Shown: positions 1 through 5,201 of the stretch, in pieces | How positions within the stretch are numbered: position 1 is the stretch's first letter | Layout of the letters: every line of letters begins with the position of its first letter | Origin: an archaeon | Lineage (GTDB): Archaea; Iainarchaeota; Iainarchaeia; Iainarchaeales; CSSED10-239 | Assembly (NCBI GenBank): GCA_037147375.1 | Contig: JBAWVI010000067.1 | Coordinates: 1 to 5,201, forward strand | Length of the DNA stretch: 5,201 bases | Direction: 5' to 3' | Program-made: the position numbers and the translations under genes | Notes under the pieces: model-generated | Database searches by the model: none | What the model saw: the letters and a program-made list of their open reading frames with translations, nothing else | What the model was told of the DNA's origin: nothing

Positions 1-60
1 CTTTTAAAGATTTTTAAATATTTGAAAAATCAATCTCTTTCTTTTAAAGATTTTTCAATA
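1..60. repeat. 20-nt direct repeat (19/20 identical), copies at 1-20 and 41-60, bracketing the stop codon of the 342-aa ORF
   Basis: cttttaaagatttttAaata (1-20) versus cttttaaagatttttCaata (41-60). The offset is 40 nt, so the copies are not in the same frame. The first copy touches the window edge. Confidence 0.5.
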
Positions 61-1058
61 TCTTTAAATACATCATTTATTTCAGAAACAGAGTGTGTCT
101 TTGGTTTCTTTTTTGAAAATAGTACTTTAAATGCTTCTATAATTCCACCCTTCTTTCTAATAGTTATTGTACTCTTTGTTTCATCTTTTGATAAAGTAAC
201 TATAGGATTACTTACTGGCGCGGTTATTGGTTTATCATCTTTAGATTGAACTGCTTCACGTACATCAATAACCACATATTTTTCATCCTTAATAATAGCT
301 TGCTTCTTTGAAAGATTCTTCCAATACTCATCCATATTTTTCTTATTGGATGCAATTATTTCGTGATCAATATCAATATTTTGCGTTTTAGATGCAAATA
401 AAGTATTTACAAAGTCTGCAATTCTGTTTGATTTAAGTTCAACCTCAGAACCAAATACAACTCCTGATTCTTTTATTTTTTGAATAACCCCAATAATAAT
501 ATCCCTACTAAAACCTTCATCTCTAATTGCAAGTTTAATTTCATCTTCTGAAAAATACTTTGCTCTAGGTAATAATAAATTATATAAATAATCAACTTTG
601 CTTTGTTTGTTTTTTTCTTCAGCAGTTAATTGTTTTTCATCATTTGTTGCATTAATTATTTCCTTATAAGAAGTAGAAACTAAATTATAACTTTTTAGTT
701 TTTGTTTATATGCAGGAAATTTTGATAGTAAAAGTATTAAACGCTCATACTCTTTTGCAGATTCCCATTGCAAGGATACATATTCATCATAAGATAATTT
801 TTTAGTATTATATAATTCATCTACATCTTCAATACTCTTTCTAACCTCTTGATATTCTTTAAATAGTTTTTCAGGATCTTCTTTTGAAGAGGGGAGTATA
901 AACGTAAATAGTACATAAAGTAGAAAAATAAATATAAAACCAATTATTAAATAAATCCAAGTATTTTGTGGAATTGTATCAATTAAACTTTTTTTAAGAG
1001 TATCATTAATTAAAGATTCTCCAGTATATATCGTAAGTAATATTTGATACATATTCAC
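30..1058 (-). CDS. Hypothetical membrane-anchored protein: one N-terminal TM helix followed by a long K/E-rich helical region
   Basis: A 342-aa ORF, which is long for such AT-rich DNA. The track start is GTG at 1056-1058, and an ATG lies two codons in at 1050-1052, so the true start is ambiguous. The TM helix is WIYLIIGFIFIFLLYVLFTFILP (aa 34-56, nt 891-959). The remainder is a charged helical region with a SHOCT-like stretch, DELYNTKKLSYDEYVSLQWE. An internal amphipathic peptide, GGIIEAFKVLFSKKK (aa 304-318, nt 105-149), is also present. I do not recognise a family. Confidence 0.6.
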   Translation of the reverse strand: MNMYQILLTIYTGESLINDTLKKSLIDTIPQNTWIYLIIGFIFIFLLYVLFTFILPSSKEDPEKLFKEYQEVRKSIEDVDELYNTKKLSYDEYVSLQWESAKEYERLILLLSKFPAYKQKLKSYNLVSTSYKEIINATNDEKQLTAEEKNKQSKVDYLYNLLLPRAKYFSEDEIKLAIRDEGFSRDIIIGVIQKIKESGVVFGSEVELKSNRIADFVNTLFASKTQNIDIDHEIIASNKKNMDEYWKNLSKKQAIIKDEKYVVIDVREAVQSKDDKPITAPVSNPIVTLSKDETKSTITIRKKGGIIEAFKVLFSKKKPKTHSVSEINDVFKDIEKSLKERD

Positions 1059-1080: not shown

Positions 1081-1317
1081 TTAAATTGAAACCCAAACTA
1101 AATTGTCTCCTCTAACTAGAGTTTCAACATACTTAGTTTTTGATTTACCATCTTTAAGTTCTTCTGCGTCTTCAAGAACTATATTCATATGAACATCGAA
1201 TGCTTTAAGTTTACCTCTTACTTGAACATTGTCCTTAAGAAGTATTAATACTTGTTTGTTGATCGCATTGTTTAGCATATCAAATGGTCTTGTTATTTTT
1301 GAGTTAATGTCTGTCAT
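1081..1317 (-). CDS. lsm: Archaeal Sm-like (LSm/SmAP) RNA-binding protein
   Basis: A 78-aa single-domain protein. It has an Sm1-like segment, VLILLKDNVQVRGKLKAFDVHMNIVLEDAEE, and an Sm2-like segment, LVRGDNLVWVS. The size and layout are typical of archaeal SmAP1. A strong SD lies just upstream. Confidence 0.9.
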   Translation of the reverse strand: MTDINSKITRPFDMLNNAINKQVLILLKDNVQVRGKLKAFDVHMNIVLEDAEELKDGKSKTKYVETLVRGDNLVWVSI

Positions 1318-1320
1318 AAA

Positions 1321-1327
1321 ATCACCT
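1321..1327 (-). promoter_or_regulatory. Shine-Dalgarno site for lsm
   Basis: Plus-strand atcacct equals AGGTGAT on the minus strand. It is complementary to the conserved 16S 3' end and lies 3 nt upstream of the ATG at 1317. Confidence 0.6.
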
Positions 1328-1332
1328 TTTTT

Positions 1333-1339
1333 AAAAAAA
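1333..1339 (-). terminator. T7 tract on the minus strand in the 72-nt minD-lsm spacer (possible archaeal oligo-T terminator or attenuator)
   Basis: Plus-strand A7 (1333-1339) equals TTTTTTT on the coding strand, embedded in gagtTTaTTTaTTTTTTTaa. Archaeal RNAP terminates at oligo-T. However, the tract lies only about 6 nt upstream of the lsm SD, so its role is ambiguous. Confidence 0.25.
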
Positions 1340-1389
1340 TAAATAAACTCTATAATATTGTGTTGCTATCATTTAAATACTTTTCTTTT

Positions 1390-2175
1390 TTACTTTTTCC
1401 TTGAAAATAATCTTTTTAAGAAAGCAAATAAGCCTCCACTCGATTTCTTAGTTGTTTCTCCTTCTTTTCCTGTTATTTTTTTTGCTATTGCCCTAAATGA
1501 ATTTGCAGATGGTCCATTTGGAGAATGAATTAATAATGGTTTGATTTTTTTAAGTAAGAATGATTCTCTAATATCCTCTGCATATGGAATTCTACCATAA
1601 CAAGGGAGTTCAAGCATTTTCATTATTTCTTTTTCTGAAATTTCACCAGAAATATTACTTACTTTATTAATTACAATTCCTAAAACCTTAAGATTTAATC
1701 TTTCTGCAACAATCTTAACTTTAAAAACATCTGCAACTGATGGAGATGTTGGTTCTGTGATTAATAAAATTTGAGTGGATGATGACATTGCAGCAATTAC
1801 GTTTTTATCTATTCCTGCTGGAGCATCAATTAAAATATAATCATATTGATTATATAAACTTTTAACAACAGAAACTAATCTTTCAACATCTACTCTTTGG
1901 TAAGTTGAAATAGAAAGACCTGAGGGTATGATTTTTAGTTTACCTGGTCCATCGTAAGTTGCATCTCCAACAGATGAGGATCCTAATAAAACATCATGTA
2001 AGGTTATTGGAGGATTATCAACACCAATGAGTAAGCTTAAGTTTGACATTGCAATATCTGCATCTATTAAAAGAACAGAATAACCTTGTTCTGTTAATGC
2101 AAGTCCTAAGTTTGCGGTTAATGTTGTTTTACCAACTCCACCTTTTCCTGAGACAATCGTAATTATTTCGCCCAT
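1390..2175 (-). CDS. minD: MinD/ParA-family (SIMIBI class) P-loop ATPase with a C-terminal amphipathic membrane-targeting tail
   Basis: The deviant Walker A SGKGGVGKTT (aa 9-18, nt 2122-2151) carries signature lysine K11. A switch I-like LLIDADIAMSNL and a Walker B-like YDYILIDAPAG are present. The C-terminal GGLFAFLKRLFSRKK (nt 1393-1437) resembles the E. coli MinD tail KGFLKRLFGG. Confidence 0.9.
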   Translation of the reverse strand: MGEIITIVSGKGGVGKTTLTANLGLALTEQGYSVLLIDADIAMSNLSLLIGVDNPPITLHDVLLGSSSVGDATYDGPGKLKIIPSGLSISTYQRVDVERLVSVVKSLYNQYDYILIDAPAGIDKNVIAAMSSSTQILLITEPTSPSVADVFKVKIVAERLNLKVLGIVINKVSNISGEISEKEIMKMLELPCYGRIPYAEDIRESFLLKKIKPLLIHSPNGPSANSFRAIAKKITGKEGETTKKSSGGLFAFLKRLFSRKK

Positions 2176-2190
2176 ATATTTTCACATTTA

Positions 2191-2637
2191 TTAAATTATT
2201 TGAGACATAATTTTTAAATAATTTTCAAGATCATTTACAAGAGCTTGAACTTCTATTCTTGATAAACTATCATTTGCTTTAATAAAATATACTTTATCAT
2301 TAAGTTTAAAAATAATCTGCCAACCTTTTGATTCAATTAATATTATTGAAAGATTATTAAATTCACTATTAATATAGTTGTACATAGCTGCACTTTTAAA
2401 ACCTTCTTTTAAATCTTTTTCTGTGCTTCCAATAACTATTCCAGTTACGTCTGTAACTACAATATGATTAACTAAGTGCTTTTGTCTTAGCTTTAATAAA
2501 AAGTCATCTAAATCTCTTGAACTTAGGTTTACTTTTCTATATTCAAGTAAAGAAGATAAACTTGCAGTGTCTGATGTGTCTTCTATATGTAAGACCTTGT
2601 TTGATAATCTTGTTAACATTCTGGTTATTGCTTGCAT
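2191..2637 (-). CDS. Roadblock/LC7 (MglB-like) domain protein, tentative, with an N-terminal extension of about 45 aa
   Basis: A 148-aa ORF, 15 nt upstream of minD. The core FLLKLRQKHLVNHIVVTDVTGIVIGST...LSIILIESKGWQIIFKLNDKVYFIKAN...VQALVNDLENYL follows the helix, paired-strand, helix pattern that I associate with Robl_LC7 (typical motif: v.dGl.ias). This is a motif-level call only. Confidence 0.5.
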   Translation of the reverse strand: MQAITRMLTRLSNKVLHIEDTSDTASLSSLLEYRKVNLSSRDLDDFLLKLRQKHLVNHIVVTDVTGIVIGSTEKDLKEGFKSAAMYNYINSEFNNLSIILIESKGWQIIFKLNDKVYFIKANDSLSRIEVQALVNDLENYLKIMSQII

Positions 2638-2654
2638 AATAAATCATTTTAATT

Positions 2655-3149
2655 TTAATCATTTAATAATTCAGATAAGTTTAGTTTATTAAATATATCT
2701 GTTTTTGATTCTTTAATCTCAATTTTATTACTTAATAGTTTATCTAATAAGATTTCATTATATTTTATATTTAATTTAGATAAGGACCCATTATCAACCT
2801 TGTAATCGAATTTAACCTTGTCGTTAAAAATTAGTATTAATTTAATTTGATCATCATTAAGATTATAGATGTTTAATAATCCATCTTTATTTCCAAATGC
2901 ATTTATTCCAAAATTAAAAGCATCAAGTCCAAATAACTCAATTTCATAAGAATCAATTAAAAAAATAGAACCAACAACATTTCCCTTAGTAAAAATGATT
3001 ATGCTTTCTTCAAAACCATACTTTCCATTTACTGCTAAGTAAGTATACCCAGAAAATTTCTTATTTGCTAAATCTAAAAATAATTTATCTGGCATTAATT
3101 GTTCTAAAAAAACATTCTCAACCAAAGGAACGTTTATTGGTATATTCAT
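2655..3149 (-). CDS. DUF4388/PATAN-like domain protein, tentative
   Basis: A 164-aa ORF. LEQLMPDKLFLDLANKKFSGYTYLAVNGKYGFEESIIIFTKGNVVGSIF...ELFGLDAFNFGINAF..DGLLNIYNL fits the remembered DUF4388 consensus (l.dll..l....tG.L.v....g.i.f.dG.iv.A....l.G.eAl..ll....g.f.f). The C-terminal part, about 60 aa, is helical and charged. Confidence 0.45.
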   Translation of the reverse strand: MNIPINVPLVENVFLEQLMPDKLFLDLANKKFSGYTYLAVNGKYGFEESIIIFTKGNVVGSIFLIDSYEIELFGLDAFNFGINAFGNKDGLLNIYNLNDDQIKLILIFNDKVKFDYKVDNGSLSKLNIKYNEILLDKLLSNKIEIKESKTDIFNKLNLSELLND

Positions 3150-3170: not shown

Positions 3171-3644
3171 TTATCTTAATTTATCTATAAAGATAACTTG
3201 ATCAACTGTATTTTTAAGAGCTGTTGCAGAACCTTCTTCAACTAAAAATACCATTGTTTTCTTACCATGTGTTTTTGCTTTTAAGATTGCTGGTAAATAA
3301 TCTGAATCACGTGTTACAAAAACAATTGTATCAATCTCTTTATTGTGAACAATGTCTGTTGCATCAACTGCCATTGCAACATCAACATCACCAACAGTTA
3401 TAACGGTTTCAAATCCAATATTTACAACTGCTTCTATAAGTTTATCTGTTGCATACTGATCAAGAAATACCTTTGCAACTTTAATAGATCCTTGTACTTT
3501 TAAATAATTTTTAATCTTTGAAAGATCAATATTAAATTCTTTTCTTAAAATATTTGGACCATCAACAAATACTGCAATATTGTTTCTTCTTGAAACTTTT
3601 GGTGCACTATCTTTATTGATAAATAAACGTAATAACTTATTCAT
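3171..3644 (-). CDS. NYN-domain (LabA/DUF88-like, archaeal TIGR00288-type) predicted ribonuclease
   Basis: A 157-aa ORF with NYN/PIN-like acidic motifs: IAVFVDGPNI (D28), GDVDVAMAVDA and FVTRDSDYLPAI. The size matches the stand-alone archaeal NYN family. Confidence 0.8.
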   Translation of the reverse strand: MNKLLRLFINKDSAPKVSRRNNIAVFVDGPNILRKEFNIDLSKIKNYLKVQGSIKVAKVFLDQYATDKLIEAVVNIGFETVITVGDVDVAMAVDATDIVHNKEIDTIVFVTRDSDYLPAILKAKTHGKKTMVFLVEEGSATALKNTVDQVIFIDKLR

Positions 3645-3650
3645 AAATAA

Positions 3651-3656
3651 TCCTCT
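3651..3656 (-). promoter_or_regulatory. Shine-Dalgarno site for the NYN gene (first gene of the minus-strand cluster)
   Basis: Plus-strand tcctct equals AGAGGA on the minus strand. The GAGG core lies 7 nt upstream of the ATG at 3644. Confidence 0.5.
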
Positions 3657-3709
3657 TTATTCAATATATACAGCCTAATGAACTGCTATAAAACTTATAA
3701 CTTGTTCTC

Positions 3710-3726
3710 TAAAGAATATTTCTTTA
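3710..3726. repeat. Inverted repeat TAAAGAA-N3-TTCTTTA in the divergent intergenic region (candidate operator)
   Basis: Perfect 7-bp arms at 3710-3716 and 3720-3726 with a 3-nt centre. Composed almost entirely of A/T, so chance occurrence is plausible. Confidence 0.3.
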
Positions 3727-3742
3727 AGGTTTTTGCAAGTTT

Positions 3743-3763
3743 TGATTTCTACAATCGAAATCA
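3743..3763. repeat. Inverted repeat TGATTTC-N7-GAAATCA in the divergent intergenic region (candidate operator or hairpin)
   Basis: Perfect 7-bp arms at 3743-3749 and 3757-3763 with the 7-nt spacer tacaatc. It lies about 35 nt upstream of the TATA box assigned to the Nre gene. Confidence 0.4.
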
Positions 3764-3797
3764 TAAGTAAAATATATATTATATTTAATTAAAATGA

Positions 3798-3805
3798 TTT
3801 ATAAA
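3798..3805 (+). promoter_or_regulatory. Archaeal TATA box (TTTATAAA) with a purine-rich BRE-like stretch just upstream; implies a leaderless Nre mRNA
   Basis: TTTATAAA lies at 3798-3805, preceded by aaaatga. The box centre is about 27 nt upstream of the ATG at 3829. No SD-like sequence occurs in the 20 nt before the ATG. Confidence 0.5.
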
Positions 3806-3828
3806 GGTATCTTAATTTATATAATATT

Positions 3829-4908
3829 ATGGGTACAAAACAAGTATTTTCTAGACCTTTTAATCTAGTTTGTGAAAAAGATTTTCCAAATGTACTACTA
3901 GGCCCTGGAATATACGCAGATTACATTAATGCTAAGTGCTCTTCACCTAAAGATTGGGTGAAAACAGATATTAAGAAGATTGATGAAAATAGGAGTAAGC
4001 AAATATTTTCTTTTGAAAAGTATGAAAAGGATGATGCACTTTATCCAACTAAGGAATTATCTGAGATTCAATTAATTACTCAGAGCATAAAAACAACTGA
4101 GCTTGAAATATCTCTCGGGGTCGGAGAAAGAAAAGTAATTGATAACGTTTCTGGAATAAATAATTCTTTCTTTGATATTGAAAATCTTAAGATTGTTGAA
4201 AATATACAAGTTCCTAAAGCAATTGATAAGGTTGTTTCTGACCCATCTCTTCCAGCAACAACTGGGATGATCTCACTTTATAAAAAATTAGATGATGTTT
4301 ATAAGATTGAACAACTTCTTTCTGTTGGATTGCTTGGGAATAAGAATAAAAGATCTCTTGTTCCTACAAAATGGGCAATAACTGCAGTTGATGATACTGT
4401 TTCTAAAGATATTATTGAGGATATTAAACATAATCAAACTATTGATAAATATGAGTTATATACATTTGAGTTTTATAAAAATAAGTTTTATATAATAATT
4501 ATGCCTCTTCCTTGGTCATTTGAAATGATTGAATCAAAGGGAGAGGGTGAATTTTCAATAGACTTTGAGCATTATGAAGGGAGAAGAGATTATGCATCTT
4601 CAGTTACTGGAGCTTACTATGCTGCAAGACTTGAGATAACTAAGCAACTAAGTGAAAGAAAAAGAAGCGGAAGGGTGCTTATATTAAGAGATATTGATGT
4701 TACTTATCAATCTAAAGGAGTATGGGTAATAAGAGAAGCTGTGTCTGAAGCTATGAAAAATAAACCTCTTATTTTTGAAACTATTGATTTGCTTTTAAAA
4801 TATGTAGATGAAGAATTAAAGATTAAAGGACACATCAAATATTGGACTGATAACTCAACTATTTTAAAAGAAAATAAAATGCAAAGAAGATTATTTGAGT
4901 TTATTTGA
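3829..4908 (+). CDS. nreA: Nre-family DNA repair protein (archaeal NreA-like) with a C-terminal PCNA-interacting (PIP) motif
   Basis: A 359-aa ORF. LVPTKWAITAVDD (around nt 4363-4395) and GAYYAARLEITKQL...VLILRDIDVTYQSKGVWVIREAV match my recollection of the conserved Nre_N/Nre_C blocks. The extreme C-terminus, QRRLFEFI (nt 4882-4905), fits the PIP box Qxx[LIM]xxF[FYI]. Confidence 0.7.
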   Translation: MGTKQVFSRPFNLVCEKDFPNVLLGPGIYADYINAKCSSPKDWVKTDIKKIDENRSKQIFSFEKYEKDDALYPTKELSEIQLITQSIKTTELEISLGVGERKVIDNVSGINNSFFDIENLKIVENIQVPKAIDKVVSDPSLPATTGMISLYKKLDDVYKIEQLLSVGLLGNKNKRSLVPTKWAITAVDDTVSKDIIEDIKHNQTIDKYELYTFEFYKNKFYIIIMPLPWSFEMIESKGEGEFSIDFEHYEGRRDYASSVTGAYYAARLEITKQLSERKRSGRVLILRDIDVTYQSKGVWVIREAVSEAMKNKPLIFETIDLLLKYVDEELKIKGHIKYWTDNSTILKENKMQRRLFEFI

Positions 4909-4910
4909 TT

Positions 4911-5189
4911 TTAAACAAATAAACTAAAATGTAATCTCAAATAGAATAAGATTGTAATTATTGATATAATTATCTGAATTATGTAAAATGTCCAAACTAA
5001 TTTTCTTTCTGTAAATCTTCCAGTTCTTAGGACCACGTGTGTTAATGATCCACCTTTTGGATTTGGTTTGATGGTTCCATTCTTTTGTGGAATACCAAAA
5101 CACTCTGTTTTTAAAGAATGTGCGATCTTGATAAAAAATTCAATAACATATAATAAAACTAAAAAACCTATTAAAAATTCCATGTGCAA
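4911..5189 (-). CDS. Small hypothetical membrane protein (two predicted TM helices), possibly 5'-truncated by the window edge
   Basis: The track start is TTG at 5187-5189, and an ATG lies at 5181-5183. The frame has no stop between 5190 and 5201, so the gene could begin outside the window. The TM helices are FLIGFLVLLYVIEFFIKI and LVWTFYIIQIIISIITILFYL, separated by a basic loop, GIPQKNGTIKPNPKGGSLTHVVLRTGRFTERK. An open frame of over 90 codons is unlikely by chance in DNA this AT-rich. Confidence 0.4.
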   Translation of the reverse strand: MHMEFLIGFLVLLYVIEFFIKIAHSLKTECFGIPQKNGTIKPNPKGGSLTHVVLRTGRFTERKLVWTFYIIQIIISIITILFYLRLHFSLFV

Positions 5190-5201
5190 AACAATTGCTG
5201 A

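What the first reader, a model, noticed from the sequence alone, without database searches (positions are those of the whole stretch)
1390..3149. PATAN-like + Roadblock/LC7-like + MinD-type ATPase module: a polarity-type cassette with the small GTPase replaced by a SIMIBI ATPase
Seen in sequence: three consecutive minus-strand ORFs (2655-3149, 2191-2637, 1390-2175) are separated by only 17 and 15 nt, so they are almost certainly co-transcribed. The first fits a DUF4388/PATAN pattern. The second fits a Roadblock/LC7 pattern. The third is an unambiguous MinD/ParA deviant-Walker-A ATPase. Established knowledge: Roadblock/LC7 proteins (MglB, LAMTOR/Ragulator) are regulators of Ras-like GTPases (Koonin and Aravind 2000). 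PATAN domains were tied by genome context to motility and polarity control (Makarova et al. 2006). As far as I recall, they partner with MglA-type GTPases. Archaea encode MinD homologues but no recognisable MinE or MinC. Inference: here the NTPase slot is filled by a MinD-class ATPase. The Roadblock-like and PATAN-like proteins are therefore candidates for the missing archaeal MinD activator or localiser, a functional MinE analogue. The basic amphipathic N-terminal extension of the Roadblock-like protein (MQAITRMLTRLSNKVL) could be a contact or membrane helix, but that is speculation. I am not aware of a characterised MinD-Roadblock-PATAN system.
Basis: partly seen in the sequence, partly recalled or inferred. 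Interest (0 to 1): 0.75.

Follow-up and report, generated by a model that had tools for sequence, protein, structure and literature searches.

The report
MinD ATPase with Roadblock and PATAN-like partners
In tiny DPANN archaea, a membrane-binding MinD positioning ATPase is always encoded next to a PATAN-related protein and usually a Roadblock-fold protein, which makes these two the first concrete candidates for the unknown partners of an archaeal MinD.

Summary
Three tightly spaced minus-strand genes encode the following.

- **p1 (164 aa):** its family is Pfam DUF2226. I show DUF2226 is homologous to PATAN (DUF4388/PatA_N).
- **p2 (148 aa):** the AlphaFold model matches only Roadblock/LC7 structures. 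No Pfam Roadblock model reaches threshold.
- **MinD:** a bona fide archaeal MinD with a deviant Walker A and a conserved C-terminal amphipathic tail.

The window comes from an Iainarchaeota (Diapherotrites, DPANN) genome.

**Synteny.**
- All 44 close loci keep NYN–p1–p2–MinD wherever the contig reaches, and LSM follows.
- The order recurs in Micrarchaeota and other MAGs (27–58% GC, p1 only about 20–25% identical), with 1–4-nt gene overlaps and otherwise rearranged flanks.
- Two lineages keep DUF2226–MinD but lack p2.
- One of those also lacks NYN and LSM, so DUF2226–MinD is the core pair.
- No small GTPase lies nearby.

**Interpretation.** The reading as a PATAN/Roadblock polarity cassette built on a MinD ATPase holds at the level of domains and synteny. 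The proposed MinE-like activity is untested. Related caveats:
- The conserved block is larger than the trio.
- I could not examine the context of euryarchaeal DUF2226.
- Divisome positioning in Euryarchaeota is now attributed to the unrelated Dip/Arco GTPase system.

I found no description of this module in the searched literature.

The parts
2655..3149 (-). p1, 164 aa: single-domain DUF2226-family protein of the PATAN superfamily, acidic (pI 4.7)
   Evidence: Pfam DUF2226 at E=0.019 for this protein; 13/20 close homologs hit, best 1.5e-6. 114/124 family representatives hit DUF2226 and 10 hit DUF4388/PatA_N. AF2 model pLDDT 83, with no PDB fold match.
2802..3149 (-). PATAN-like core of p1 (about residues 1-116), with the F-x-G-Y ... 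G-x-I-x-F-x-x-G ... G-x-x-A pattern
   Evidence: hhalign of the p1 family against DUF4388-only proteins P0234 and P0241: probability 86% and 89%, E 4.9e-6 and 2.1e-6, over p1 residues 1-106. Near-invariant G34, Y35, G56, A77, N83 across 124 representatives.
2191..2637 (-). p2, 148 aa: Roadblock/LC7-fold protein from a family not covered by Pfam
   Evidence: AF2 topology alpha-beta-beta-alpha-beta-beta-beta-alpha. Foldseek PDB: 81 hits at E<=1e-3, including LAMTOR2, MP1/p14, MglB 6h5b_B and Asgard Roadblock. PDB sequence-profile top hits are dynein Roadblock, E 0.03-0.4.
2590..2637 (-). Conserved basic amphipathic N-terminal extension of p2 (residues 1-16, MQAITRMLTRLSNKVL)
   Evidence: Highest hydrophobic moment in the protein (0.79), charge +3, no acidic residues. 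The pattern is conserved across Iainarchaeota and kept as a basic helix in Micrarchaeota homologs. AF2 confidence here is low (pLDDT <50).
2197..2520 (-). Roadblock core of p2 (residues 40-147)
   Evidence: Secondary-structure elements H40-54, E56-63, E68-71, H76-92, E99-102, E106-112, E115-121, H127-147; Foldseek alignments.
1390..2175 (-). Archaeal MinD-type ATPase, 261 aa
   Evidence: TIGR01969 minD_arch 257.3 bits (cutoff 201.75). Pfam ParA/CbiA/AAA_31. Best PDB match A. fulgidus MinD-1, 1HYQ, 3.2e-58.
2125..2148 (-). Deviant Walker A of MinD (G10-K11-G-G-V-G-K16-T17, signature lysine K11)
   Evidence: Read from the translation; invariant in all orthologs.
1393..1437 (-). C-terminal amphipathic tail of MinD (GGLFAFLKRLFSRKK), a likely membrane-targeting sequence
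   Evidence: Conserved in Iainarchaeota orthologs and in the distant loci except L047. The role of such tails in MinD-like ATPases is described in PMC11407121 and 10.1101/2020.04.03.021790.
3171..3644 (-). Upstream NYN-domain gene (TIGR00288), first gene of the conserved co-linear block; relation to the module unknown
   Evidence: Pfam NYN 1.5e-26; TIGR00288 183 bits, cutoff 178. Present immediately upstream of DUF2226 in every locus except L050.
1081..1317 (-). Downstream Sm-like (LSM) gene, conserved after MinD; has its own Shine-Dalgarno-like site and a 72-nt AT-rich spacer with a TATA-like TTTAAAT
   Evidence: Pfam LSM 2e-21; spacer sequence; synteny.
3645..3828 (.). 184-nt divergent intergenic region between NYN and Nre; the likely promoter region for the NYN-p1-p2-MinD unit (inferred)
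   Evidence: It is the only long non-coding gap upstream of the block. No promoter was tested.

Best explanation
This is a dedicated MinD module of DPANN archaea (Iainarchaeota, Micrarchaeota and relatives). The parts are a membrane-binding MinD-type ATPase, co-expressed with a PATAN-superfamily protein (DUF2226, the constant partner) and usually a Roadblock-fold protein. Shown: the three identities, the conserved gene order, and overlapping stop/start codons across very divergent genomes. Inferred mechanism: (1) MinD-ATP dimerises and binds the membrane through its C-terminal amphipathic tail. (2) The Roadblock-fold protein, presumably a dimer like other Roadblock proteins, presents its conserved basic N-terminal helices to the MinD dimer and tunes ATP hydrolysis or membrane release, as MinE, ParB or PomX N-terminal peptides do. 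(3) The PATAN-like protein acts as the adaptor or output that ties the MinD pattern to a cargo or site, as PATAN domains do for the type IV pilus motor and divisome proteins in cyanobacteria. In architecture it parallels the bacterial PATAN/MglB(Roadblock)/MglA neighbourhoods, with a SIMIBI-class ATPase in the place of the Ras-like GTPase.
For: - Identities: MinD; Roadblock fold (with weak sequence echoes); DUF2226 and its PATAN homology.
- Close synteny: all 19 species-representative genomes and all 25 metagenome loci keep NYN-p1-p2-MinD, with LSM following, wherever the contig reaches.
- Distant synteny: loci at 29-58% GC, with p1 about 20-35% identical, keep DUF2226-p2-MinD, mostly with 1-4-nt overlaps (L048, L049, L051, L052, L054). 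L047 keeps the genes but has one inserted opposite-strand gene.
- The small ORFs in those loci are p2 homologs by HMM, E from 7e-21 to 1.5e-5. L052 and L054, which were not used to build the broad profile, hit it at 5e-14 and 1e-20.
- L050 keeps a full-length DUF2226 overlapping the minD start without NYN, LSM or p2.
- Flanks outside the block differ between lineages.
- The MinD amphipathic tail and the p2 basic N-terminal helix are conserved across phyla.
- PATAN genes neighbour MglA/MglB genes (PMC4316618). PATAN is a membrane-localised output domain for protein-protein interaction (PMC11181946).
- No small GTPase appears in any neighbourhood table.
Against: - No interaction was predicted or measured.
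- The conserved block also contains NYN and LSM (RNA-related genes), so synteny alone does not single out the trio.
- p2 is absent next to DUF2226-MinD in L050 and L053, so it is not obligatory.
- In L047 an opposite-strand gene separates p2 from MinD.
- The three-domain DUF2226/PATAN paralogs of Theionarchaea and Methanofastidiosia are not next to MinD.
- The p2 model has only moderate confidence (mean pLDDT 64), and its N-terminal helix is below pLDDT 50.
- The p1 fold has no solved counterpart.
- All documented cases are DPANN-type MAGs, which may simply have slow genome rearrangement.
Confidence: 0.55

Rival explanations
1. Passive synteny. NYN, DUF2226, the Roadblock-like gene, MinD and LSM are a conserved housekeeping gene string in small, slowly rearranging DPANN genomes. 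They are co-transcribed for convenience, with no physical or regulatory link between MinD and the two small proteins.
For: The conserved block is larger than the trio and mixes RNA-related genes (NYN, LSM; also TatD and aIF5A nearby) with MinD. All cases are from related DPANN lineages. p2 can be lost (L050, L053), and MinD can be separated by an insertion (L047).
Against: Order is kept from 27% to 58% GC and down to about 20% p1 identity, while genes beyond the block are shuffled. Stop/start overlaps occur specifically at the DUF2226-p2-MinD junctions. L050 keeps DUF2226 overlapping minD after losing NYN and LSM. PATAN and Roadblock are both families with a record of partnering NTPases.
Confidence: 0.2
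2. The PATAN-like and Roadblock-like proteins regulate a different, unlinked machine. This could be an MglA/Arf-like small GTPase encoded elsewhere, or a type IV pilus or archaellum ATPase. MinD is only a co-expressed neighbour, or acts in parallel on the same cargo.
For: Every characterised Roadblock regulator acts on a small GTPase (structures; PMC4316618). Characterised PATAN domains bind PilB1 and PilC. Roadblock arCOG02603 genes occur in archaeal T4P loci (PMC4858521).
Against: No GTPase or T4P gene lies within about 5 kb in any of the loci examined. The only NTPase that is constantly adjacent is MinD.
Confidence: 0.15
3. p1 and p2 work with the flanking NYN nuclease and Sm-like protein in RNA processing, and MinD is the odd one out.
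For: NYN directly precedes p1 (21-nt gap here, overlaps elsewhere) in all loci but one, and LSM follows MinD.
Against: As far as I know, neither PATAN nor Roadblock domains have any known RNA role. L050 retains DUF2226-MinD without NYN or LSM. LSM has its own ribosome-binding site and a possible own promoter.
Confidence: 0.05

Closest known systems
Bacterial MglA/MglB polarity module with neighbouring PATAN-domain proteins (Myxococcus and others; Makarova et al. 2006 as cited in PMC4316618)
   Same: A Roadblock-fold protein and a PATAN-superfamily protein are encoded beside a P-loop NTPase that acts at the membrane or poles.
   Different: The NTPase here is a MinD/ParA-class (SIMIBI) ATPase with a deviant Walker A, not a Ras-like TRAFAC GTPase. 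The PATAN relative is the archaeal DUF2226 family, stand-alone with no REC domain. The Roadblock protein carries a basic N-terminal extension that I did not see described for MglB.
Bacterial MinCDE system
   Same: MinD-type ATPase with a C-terminal amphipathic membrane tail, encoded with two small accessory proteins in one tight cluster. One partner has a basic amphipathic N-terminus, as MinE does.
   Different: No MinC or MinE homolog. The accessory proteins have unrelated folds. No evidence for oscillation or FtsZ inhibition.
Other ParA/MinD positioning systems with dedicated partners (ParB, McdB, PomXY, FlhF/FlhG; PMC11407121)
   Same: The general logic of an A/D ATPase plus cognate partner(s) encoded next door. 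The partner contacts the ATPase through an N-terminal peptide.
   Different: I found no described partner with a Roadblock or PATAN fold in the searched literature.
Haloferax volcanii MinD2/MinD4 (PMC11588486; 10.1101/2020.04.03.021790)
   Same: [quoted passage not shown] MinD2 has a conserved downstream gene, HVO_0596.
   Different: Those act on the motility and chemotaxis machinery of haloarchaea. Deleting HVO_0596 gave no phenotype, and the paper calls it only a protein of unknown function.
Dip/Arco oscillator of Euryarchaeota (PMC13228585; 10.64898/2026.07.23.738820)
   Same: A three-gene archaeal operon encoding a membrane-binding NTPase, a small regulator and a third factor, functionally analogous to Min.
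   Different: Entirely different proteins (Ras-superfamily GTPase, SepF-like DUF2073, Zn-ribbon protein). Among DPANN it is reported only in Nanohaloarchaeota.

Membership tests
Archaeal MinD (TIGR01969, ParA/MinD family) | Score above the curated family cutoff | tested here: met
   257.3 bits against a cutoff of 201.75. Bacterial MinD model TIGR01968 scores 134.8, below its 212.9 cutoff.
Archaeal MinD (TIGR01969, ParA/MinD family) | Deviant Walker A KGGxGK[ST] with signature lysine | tested here: met
   SGKGGVGKTT, residues 9-18; invariant in orthologs.
Archaeal MinD (TIGR01969, ParA/MinD family) | C-terminal amphipathic membrane-targeting helix | tested here: met
   GGLFAFLKRLFSRKK, conserved across lineages. 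Membrane binding itself was not tested.
Archaeal MinD (TIGR01969, ParA/MinD family) | ATP-dependent dimerisation and partner-stimulated ATPase | not testable with these tools
   Needs biochemistry.
Roadblock/LC7 (Pfam PF03259; MglB/LAMTOR fold) | alpha-beta-beta-alpha-beta-beta-beta fold | tested here: met
   AF2 topology. 81 Foldseek PDB hits at E<=1e-3; the 50 listed are Roadblock-type. Model confidence is moderate (pLDDT 64).
Roadblock/LC7 (Pfam PF03259; MglB/LAMTOR fold) | Sequence match to the Pfam model at the gathering threshold | tested here: not met
   Only 6/39 members give sub-threshold Robl_LC7 hits, best E 0.069. Distant homologs give none. PDB profile best E 0.032.
Roadblock/LC7 (Pfam PF03259; MglB/LAMTOR fold) | Partner small Ras-like GTPase encoded nearby | tested here: not met
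   No GTPase in the window or in any related locus.
Roadblock/LC7 (Pfam PF03259; MglB/LAMTOR fold) | Homo- or heterodimer platform | not testable with these tools
   No multimer prediction was available.
DUF2226 (Pfam PF09987) | Match to the Pfam model | tested here: inconclusive
   The window protein scores 14.9 bits, below the 22-bit cutoff (E 0.019), and covers only profile positions 31-124 of 252. However, 13/20 close homologs and 114/124 family representatives match, best 1.5e-19. It is a short-form member at family level.
PATAN / DUF4388 / PatA_N (Pfam PF14332) | Direct match to the Pfam model | tested here: not met
   None of the 20 close homologs hit, even at E<=10.
PATAN / DUF4388 / PatA_N (Pfam PF14332) | Homology by profile or transitive search | tested here: met
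   The p1 profile retrieves DUF4388-only proteins P0234 and P0241 at 2.8e-5 and 1.2e-4. Some proteins pass both models' cutoffs on the same residues (P0226). hhalign probability 86-89%, E 2-5e-6.
PATAN / DUF4388 / PatA_N (Pfam PF14332) | Fusion to a REC domain (PatA-type) or the alpha-helical insertion | tested here: not met
   Stand-alone 164-aa protein with no REC domain. The insertion was not assessed.
Bacterial Min system (MinCDE) | MinE and MinC homologs next to MinD | tested here: not met
   No MinC or MinE Pfam or NCBIfam hit for any window protein.

The most novel reading that the evidence does not exclude
A Roadblock-fold dimer and a PATAN-superfamily protein are the cognate regulator and adaptor of a MinD-class ATPase. 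This would be the first case of the Roadblock/PATAN regulatory toolkit, so far tied to Ras-like GTPases, driving a SIMIBI ATPase. It would form a self-organising membrane positioning system in DPANN archaea, and possibly in other archaea that carry canonical DUF2226 next to minD. It would also supply the long-missing MinE-like partner for an archaeal MinD.
Probability: 0.25. Interest if true: 0.8.

Novelty: new variant of a known kind. Interest (0 to 1): 0.6.

Why it matters
Archaeal MinD homologs are widespread, but their partner proteins are unknown. The only studied cases, in Haloferax, position motility machinery through unidentified partners, and divisome placement there is handled by the unrelated Dip/Arco GTPase system.

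This conserved cassette gives two specific, small, soluble candidate partners that can be tested by in vitro reconstitution (ATPase assays, liposome binding, patterning on supported bilayers), even though the host organisms are uncultured.

It also assigns a context and a superfamily (PATAN) to the uncharacterised Pfam family DUF2226. It defines a Roadblock-fold family that current sequence models miss.

If the link is functional, it would show that the Roadblock/PATAN regulatory pair is not restricted to Ras-like GTPases. That bears on how NTPase-based polarity systems evolved.

Tried and rejected
1. **Direct Pfam/NCBIfam assignment of the two small proteins.** Only sub-threshold hits.
2. **Fold search of p1 against the PDB.** No significant match (best E 0.057, TM about 0.2). 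PATAN status therefore had to come from sequence profiles.
3. **Are p1 and p2 paralogs of each other?** hhalign probability 0.4%; rejected.
4. **Are long DUF2226 proteins (227-342 aa) fusions of p1 and p2?** This looked likely where a 342-aa or 291-aa gene fills the slot before MinD (L053, L050). Rejected: the p2 HMMs do not hit their C-termini. The Micrarchaeota tails are Pro/Ala/Lys/Glu-rich low-complexity repeats. P0223 is simply a full-length canonical DUF2226.
5. **Broadening the p2 profile with Micrarchaeota members to reach Roadblock by sequence.** Still E 0.032.
6. **Indexed homology search with the broad DUF2226 alignment.** Swamped by the three-domain Theionarchaea paralogs. Their loci have no MinD.
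7. **tblastn of a canonical DUF2226 against plasmids, to find annotated archaeal replicons.** No match.
8. **Literature.** No paper mentions DUF2226. PF09987 appears only in an alignment-benchmark paper. No paper combining Roadblock and MinD as a module was found. The original PATAN paper is not held.
9. **Dip/Arco preprints.** Checked as possible prior descriptions; the proteins are unrelated.
10. **RNA genes in the window.** No tRNA and no Rfam hit.
Full report
**Observation.** The window (27% GC) carries a minus-strand gene string:
- NYN, 3171-3644
- p1, 2655-3149 (164 aa)
- p2, 2191-2637 (148 aa)
- MinD, 1390-2175 (261 aa)
- LSM, 1081-1317
- a 342-aa protein, 30-1058

A divergent Nre gene lies at 3829-4908. 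The gaps are 21, 17, 15, 72 and 22 nt. Exact copies of p1 and p2 are deposited as adjacent hypothetical proteins of an uncultured archaeon (WCF78_04170 and WCF78_04165). Their relatives are named Candidatus Iainarchaeum or Diapherotrites, so the source is a DPANN archaeon.

**MinD.** The 261-aa protein scores 257 bits on TIGR01969 (archaeal MinD, cutoff 201.75). It hits ParA/CbiA/AAA_31 in Pfam. It is most similar to the solved A. fulgidus MinD-1 (1HYQ, E=3e-58). It has the deviant Walker A (GKGGVGKT). Its tail, GGLFAFLKRLFSRKK, is conserved among orthologs and in distant lineages. This looks like the amphipathic membrane-targeting sequence of MinD-like ATPases, as described in PMC11407121 and by Nussbaum et al.. 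Membrane binding is inferred, not shown.

**The 148-aa protein (p2).**
- No Pfam or NCBIfam model reaches threshold. The sub-threshold hits lean to Roadblock-type families: Robl_LC7, MAPKK1_Int/LAMTOR3, LAMTOR5 and Fuz_longin_1.
- A family profile searched against PDB sequences brings up dynein light chain Roadblock as the top hits, but only at E 0.03-0.4.
- The AlphaFold2 model (mean pLDDT 64; roughly 60-84 in 10-residue blocks across the core) has the Roadblock topology alpha-beta-beta-alpha-beta-beta-beta plus a C-terminal helix.
- Foldseek finds 81 PDB chains at E<=1e-3. The 50 listed are LAMTOR/MP1-p14, MglB, bacterial and Asgard Roadblock proteins, dynein Roadblock or Rag C-terminal domains.
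- I accept the Roadblock fold. Membership of Pfam PF03259 by sequence is not met.
- Residues 1-16 form a basic amphipathic segment. It has the highest hydrophobic moment in the protein (0.79) and a charge of +3. The pattern is conserved through Iainarchaeota and survives as a basic N-terminal helix in Micrarchaeota homologs. The model is unreliable there (pLDDT <50).

**The 164-aa protein (p1).**
- Alone it gives only a weak DUF2226 hit (E=0.019).
- 13 of 20 close homologs hit DUF2226, best 1.5e-6. None hits DUF4388/PATAN even at E<=10.
- An exhaustive profile search of 1.84 billion representatives found a small family of 147 clusters at E<=1e-3.
- Of 124 of these scanned against Pfam, 114 match DUF2226 and 10 match DUF4388. 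Newer Pfam names DUF4388 PatA_N, and the literature equates it with PATAN.
- Some proteins pass both curated cutoffs on the same residues (P0226).
- Two proteins that match only DUF4388 (P0234, P0241) are retrieved by the p1 profile at 2.8e-5 and 1.2e-4.
- hhalign of the p1 family against those two gives 86% and 89% probability over p1 residues 1-106.
- So p1 is a short, stand-alone DUF2226 protein, and DUF2226 is a branch of the PATAN superfamily.
- The p1 model is confident (pLDDT 83) but has no counterpart in the PDB.

**Synteny within the clade.** A scan of one genome per species found 19 genomes with p2 homologs. Every named one is Iainarchaeota/Diapherotrites, including the complete Ca. 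Forterrea multitransposorum chromosome. Twenty metagenome loci were found with p1, and five contigs by exact look-up. All keep the order NYN-p1-p2-MinD-LSM-342-aa protein wherever the contig extends far enough. The upstream neighbour varies between Nre and aIF5A. Within this clade the conserved unit is therefore six genes, not three. That alone cannot tie the small proteins to MinD.

**Synteny outside the clade.** I looked up the genomic context of eight divergent DUF2226 representatives.

| Locus | Lineage / GC | Arrangement |
|---|---|---|
| L048, L049, L051, L052, L054 | includes NCBI-named Micrarchaeota; 38-58% GC | TatD-NYN-DUF2226-(139-156 aa)-MinD-LSM; mostly 1-4-nt overlaps at the DUF2226/small gene/MinD junctions (short gaps in L048, L049) |
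| L047 | distant Diapherotrites | p2 and MinD separated by one opposite-strand gene |
| L053 | Micrarchaeota | a 342-aa DUF2226 protein directly precedes MinD; no p2-like ORF nearby |
| L050 | labelled 'bacterium' but with archaeal genes | a full-length canonical DUF2226 (291 aa) overlaps the minD start; no NYN, LSM or p2 |

The small proteins are p2 homologs, with HMM E-values from 7e-21 to 1.5e-5. The L052 and L054 proteins were not used to build the broad profile, and they hit it at 5e-14 and 1e-20. Genes beyond the block differ from lineage to lineage.

The constant feature is DUF2226 next to MinD: 8 of 8 distant single-domain loci, counting L047 with its inserted gene. p2 is a frequent third member (6 of 8). 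The three-domain DUF2226/PATAN paralogs of Theionarchaea and Methanofastidiosia are not near MinD. No small GTPase appears in any neighbourhood.

**A tempting idea that failed.** Where one long gene replaces p1 and p2, I suspected a fusion. The p2 HMMs do not match the C-terminal halves of any long DUF2226 protein. The Micrarchaeota extensions are Pro/Ala/Lys/Glu-rich repeats that end in a short conserved helix-like motif. The fusion hypothesis is rejected. p1 and p2 are also not related to each other.

**Most likely mechanism.**
- *Shown:* the domain identities, and a deeply conserved, tightly coupled gene cluster.
- *Established for the families:* ParA/MinD ATPases dimerise on ATP, bind the membrane through a C-terminal amphipathic helix, and are switched by a cognate partner that usually contacts them with an N-terminal peptide (PMC11407121). 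Roadblock proteins are dimeric platforms that regulate P-loop GTPases. PATAN domains are protein-protein interaction output modules at the membrane, and their genes neighbour MglA/MglB genes in bacteria (PMC11181946, PMC4316618).
- *Inferred:* MinD is the NTPase of this module. The Roadblock-fold protein modulates its ATPase or membrane cycle through its basic N-terminal helix. The PATAN-like DUF2226 protein is the core adaptor that couples MinD to a cargo or site.

I put 0.55 on the statement that the three form a functional module, and about 0.25 on the specific MinE-like activator role.

**Rivals.**
- Passive synteny in slowly rearranging DPANN genomes: 0.2.
- The small proteins serve an unlinked GTPase or pilus ATPase: 0.15.
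- An RNA-processing role together with NYN and LSM: 0.05.

**Comparison with known systems and novelty.** The cassette resembles the bacterial PATAN/MglB/MglA neighbourhoods with the GTPase replaced by a MinD-class ATPase. It resembles MinCDE only in logic, since there is no MinC or MinE. It is unrelated to the Dip/Arco oscillator reported in 2026 as the archaeal Min analogue (PMC13228585; 10.64898/2026.07.23.738820). Both of those papers note that archaeal MinD proteins have roles other than cell division, and their partners are still unidentified. [quoted passage not shown] I found no description of a MinD-Roadblock-PATAN/DUF2226 module. I rate it a new variant of a known kind.

**Limits.**
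- No complex prediction or biochemistry was possible.
- The taxonomy of several distant loci is unknown.
- The context of euryarchaeal canonical DUF2226 genes could not be examined, because the look-up and scan quotas were exhausted.
- The p2 model is of moderate confidence.

Noticed in passing
window 30-1058 (minus strand): A 342-aa protein with a hydrophobic N-terminal segment (about residues 25-55) and a Lys/Glu-rich remainder, with no family hit. It follows LSM in all Iainarchaeota loci but evolves fast (25-62% identity). Unrelated genes replace it in Micrarchaeota. It could be a lineage-specific membrane partner or simply a neighbour.
   Followed up: partly
window 3171-3644 and 1081-1317 (minus strand): An NYN-domain protein (TIGR00288) and an Sm-like protein bracket the DUF2226-Roadblock-MinD genes in two DPANN phyla. 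TatD sits upstream of NYN in Micrarchaeota, and aIF5A is often divergent upstream. Why RNA-related genes are kept with a MinD module is unexplained.
   Followed up: partly
L053 2964-3992 (P0288); also P0159, P0188, P0202: Long DUF2226 variants (314-342 aa) carry Pro/Ala/Lys/Glu-rich repeat tails (for example repeated AEPTQAKPEAKATQPKP). The tails end in a short conserved motif (EKLKRLMLKEK, KKLRELMLKER, AKLRKLIFEEE). In L053 this form occurs where the Roadblock-like gene is absent, so the tail might substitute for it.
   Followed up: partly
L045 6001-7251 and L046 6001-7251: Theionarchaea and Methanofastidiosia encode proteins of about 415 aa with tandem DUF2226/PatA_N-type domains plus DUF8572. 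They sit next to an M48 peptidase and a Na/H exchanger, not MinD. This is a separate paralogous use of the domain.
   Followed up: partly
L050 5001-5876 (P0223): Canonical full-length DUF2226 has a C-terminal half (Pfam profile positions about 125-235) that the window protein lacks. By eye it looks like an alpha/beta domain of beta-alpha-beta-beta-alpha-beta type, and it does not match the p2 profile. Its fold is unknown.
   Followed up: partly
L047 6129-7127: In a distant Diapherotrites genome, a PP-loop ATPase gene (ATP_bind_3/NAD_synthase-like) on the opposite strand is inserted between the Roadblock-like gene and MinD. MinD can therefore be transcribed separately there.
   Followed up: no
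window 4909-5201: The stretch after the Nre gene has only low-quality TTG/GTG ORFs (92 and 59 aa, hydrophobic or low-complexity), and no tRNA or Rfam hit. It is probably intergenic, or the start of a gene that runs off the window.
   Followed up: partly
window 1318-1389: The 72-nt MinD-LSM spacer contains a TATA-like TTTAAAT about 45 nt upstream of the LSM start, and a strong GGTGA ribosome-binding site. LSM and the 342-aa gene may therefore form their own transcription unit. In a 27% GC genome this match is weak evidence.
   Followed up: no
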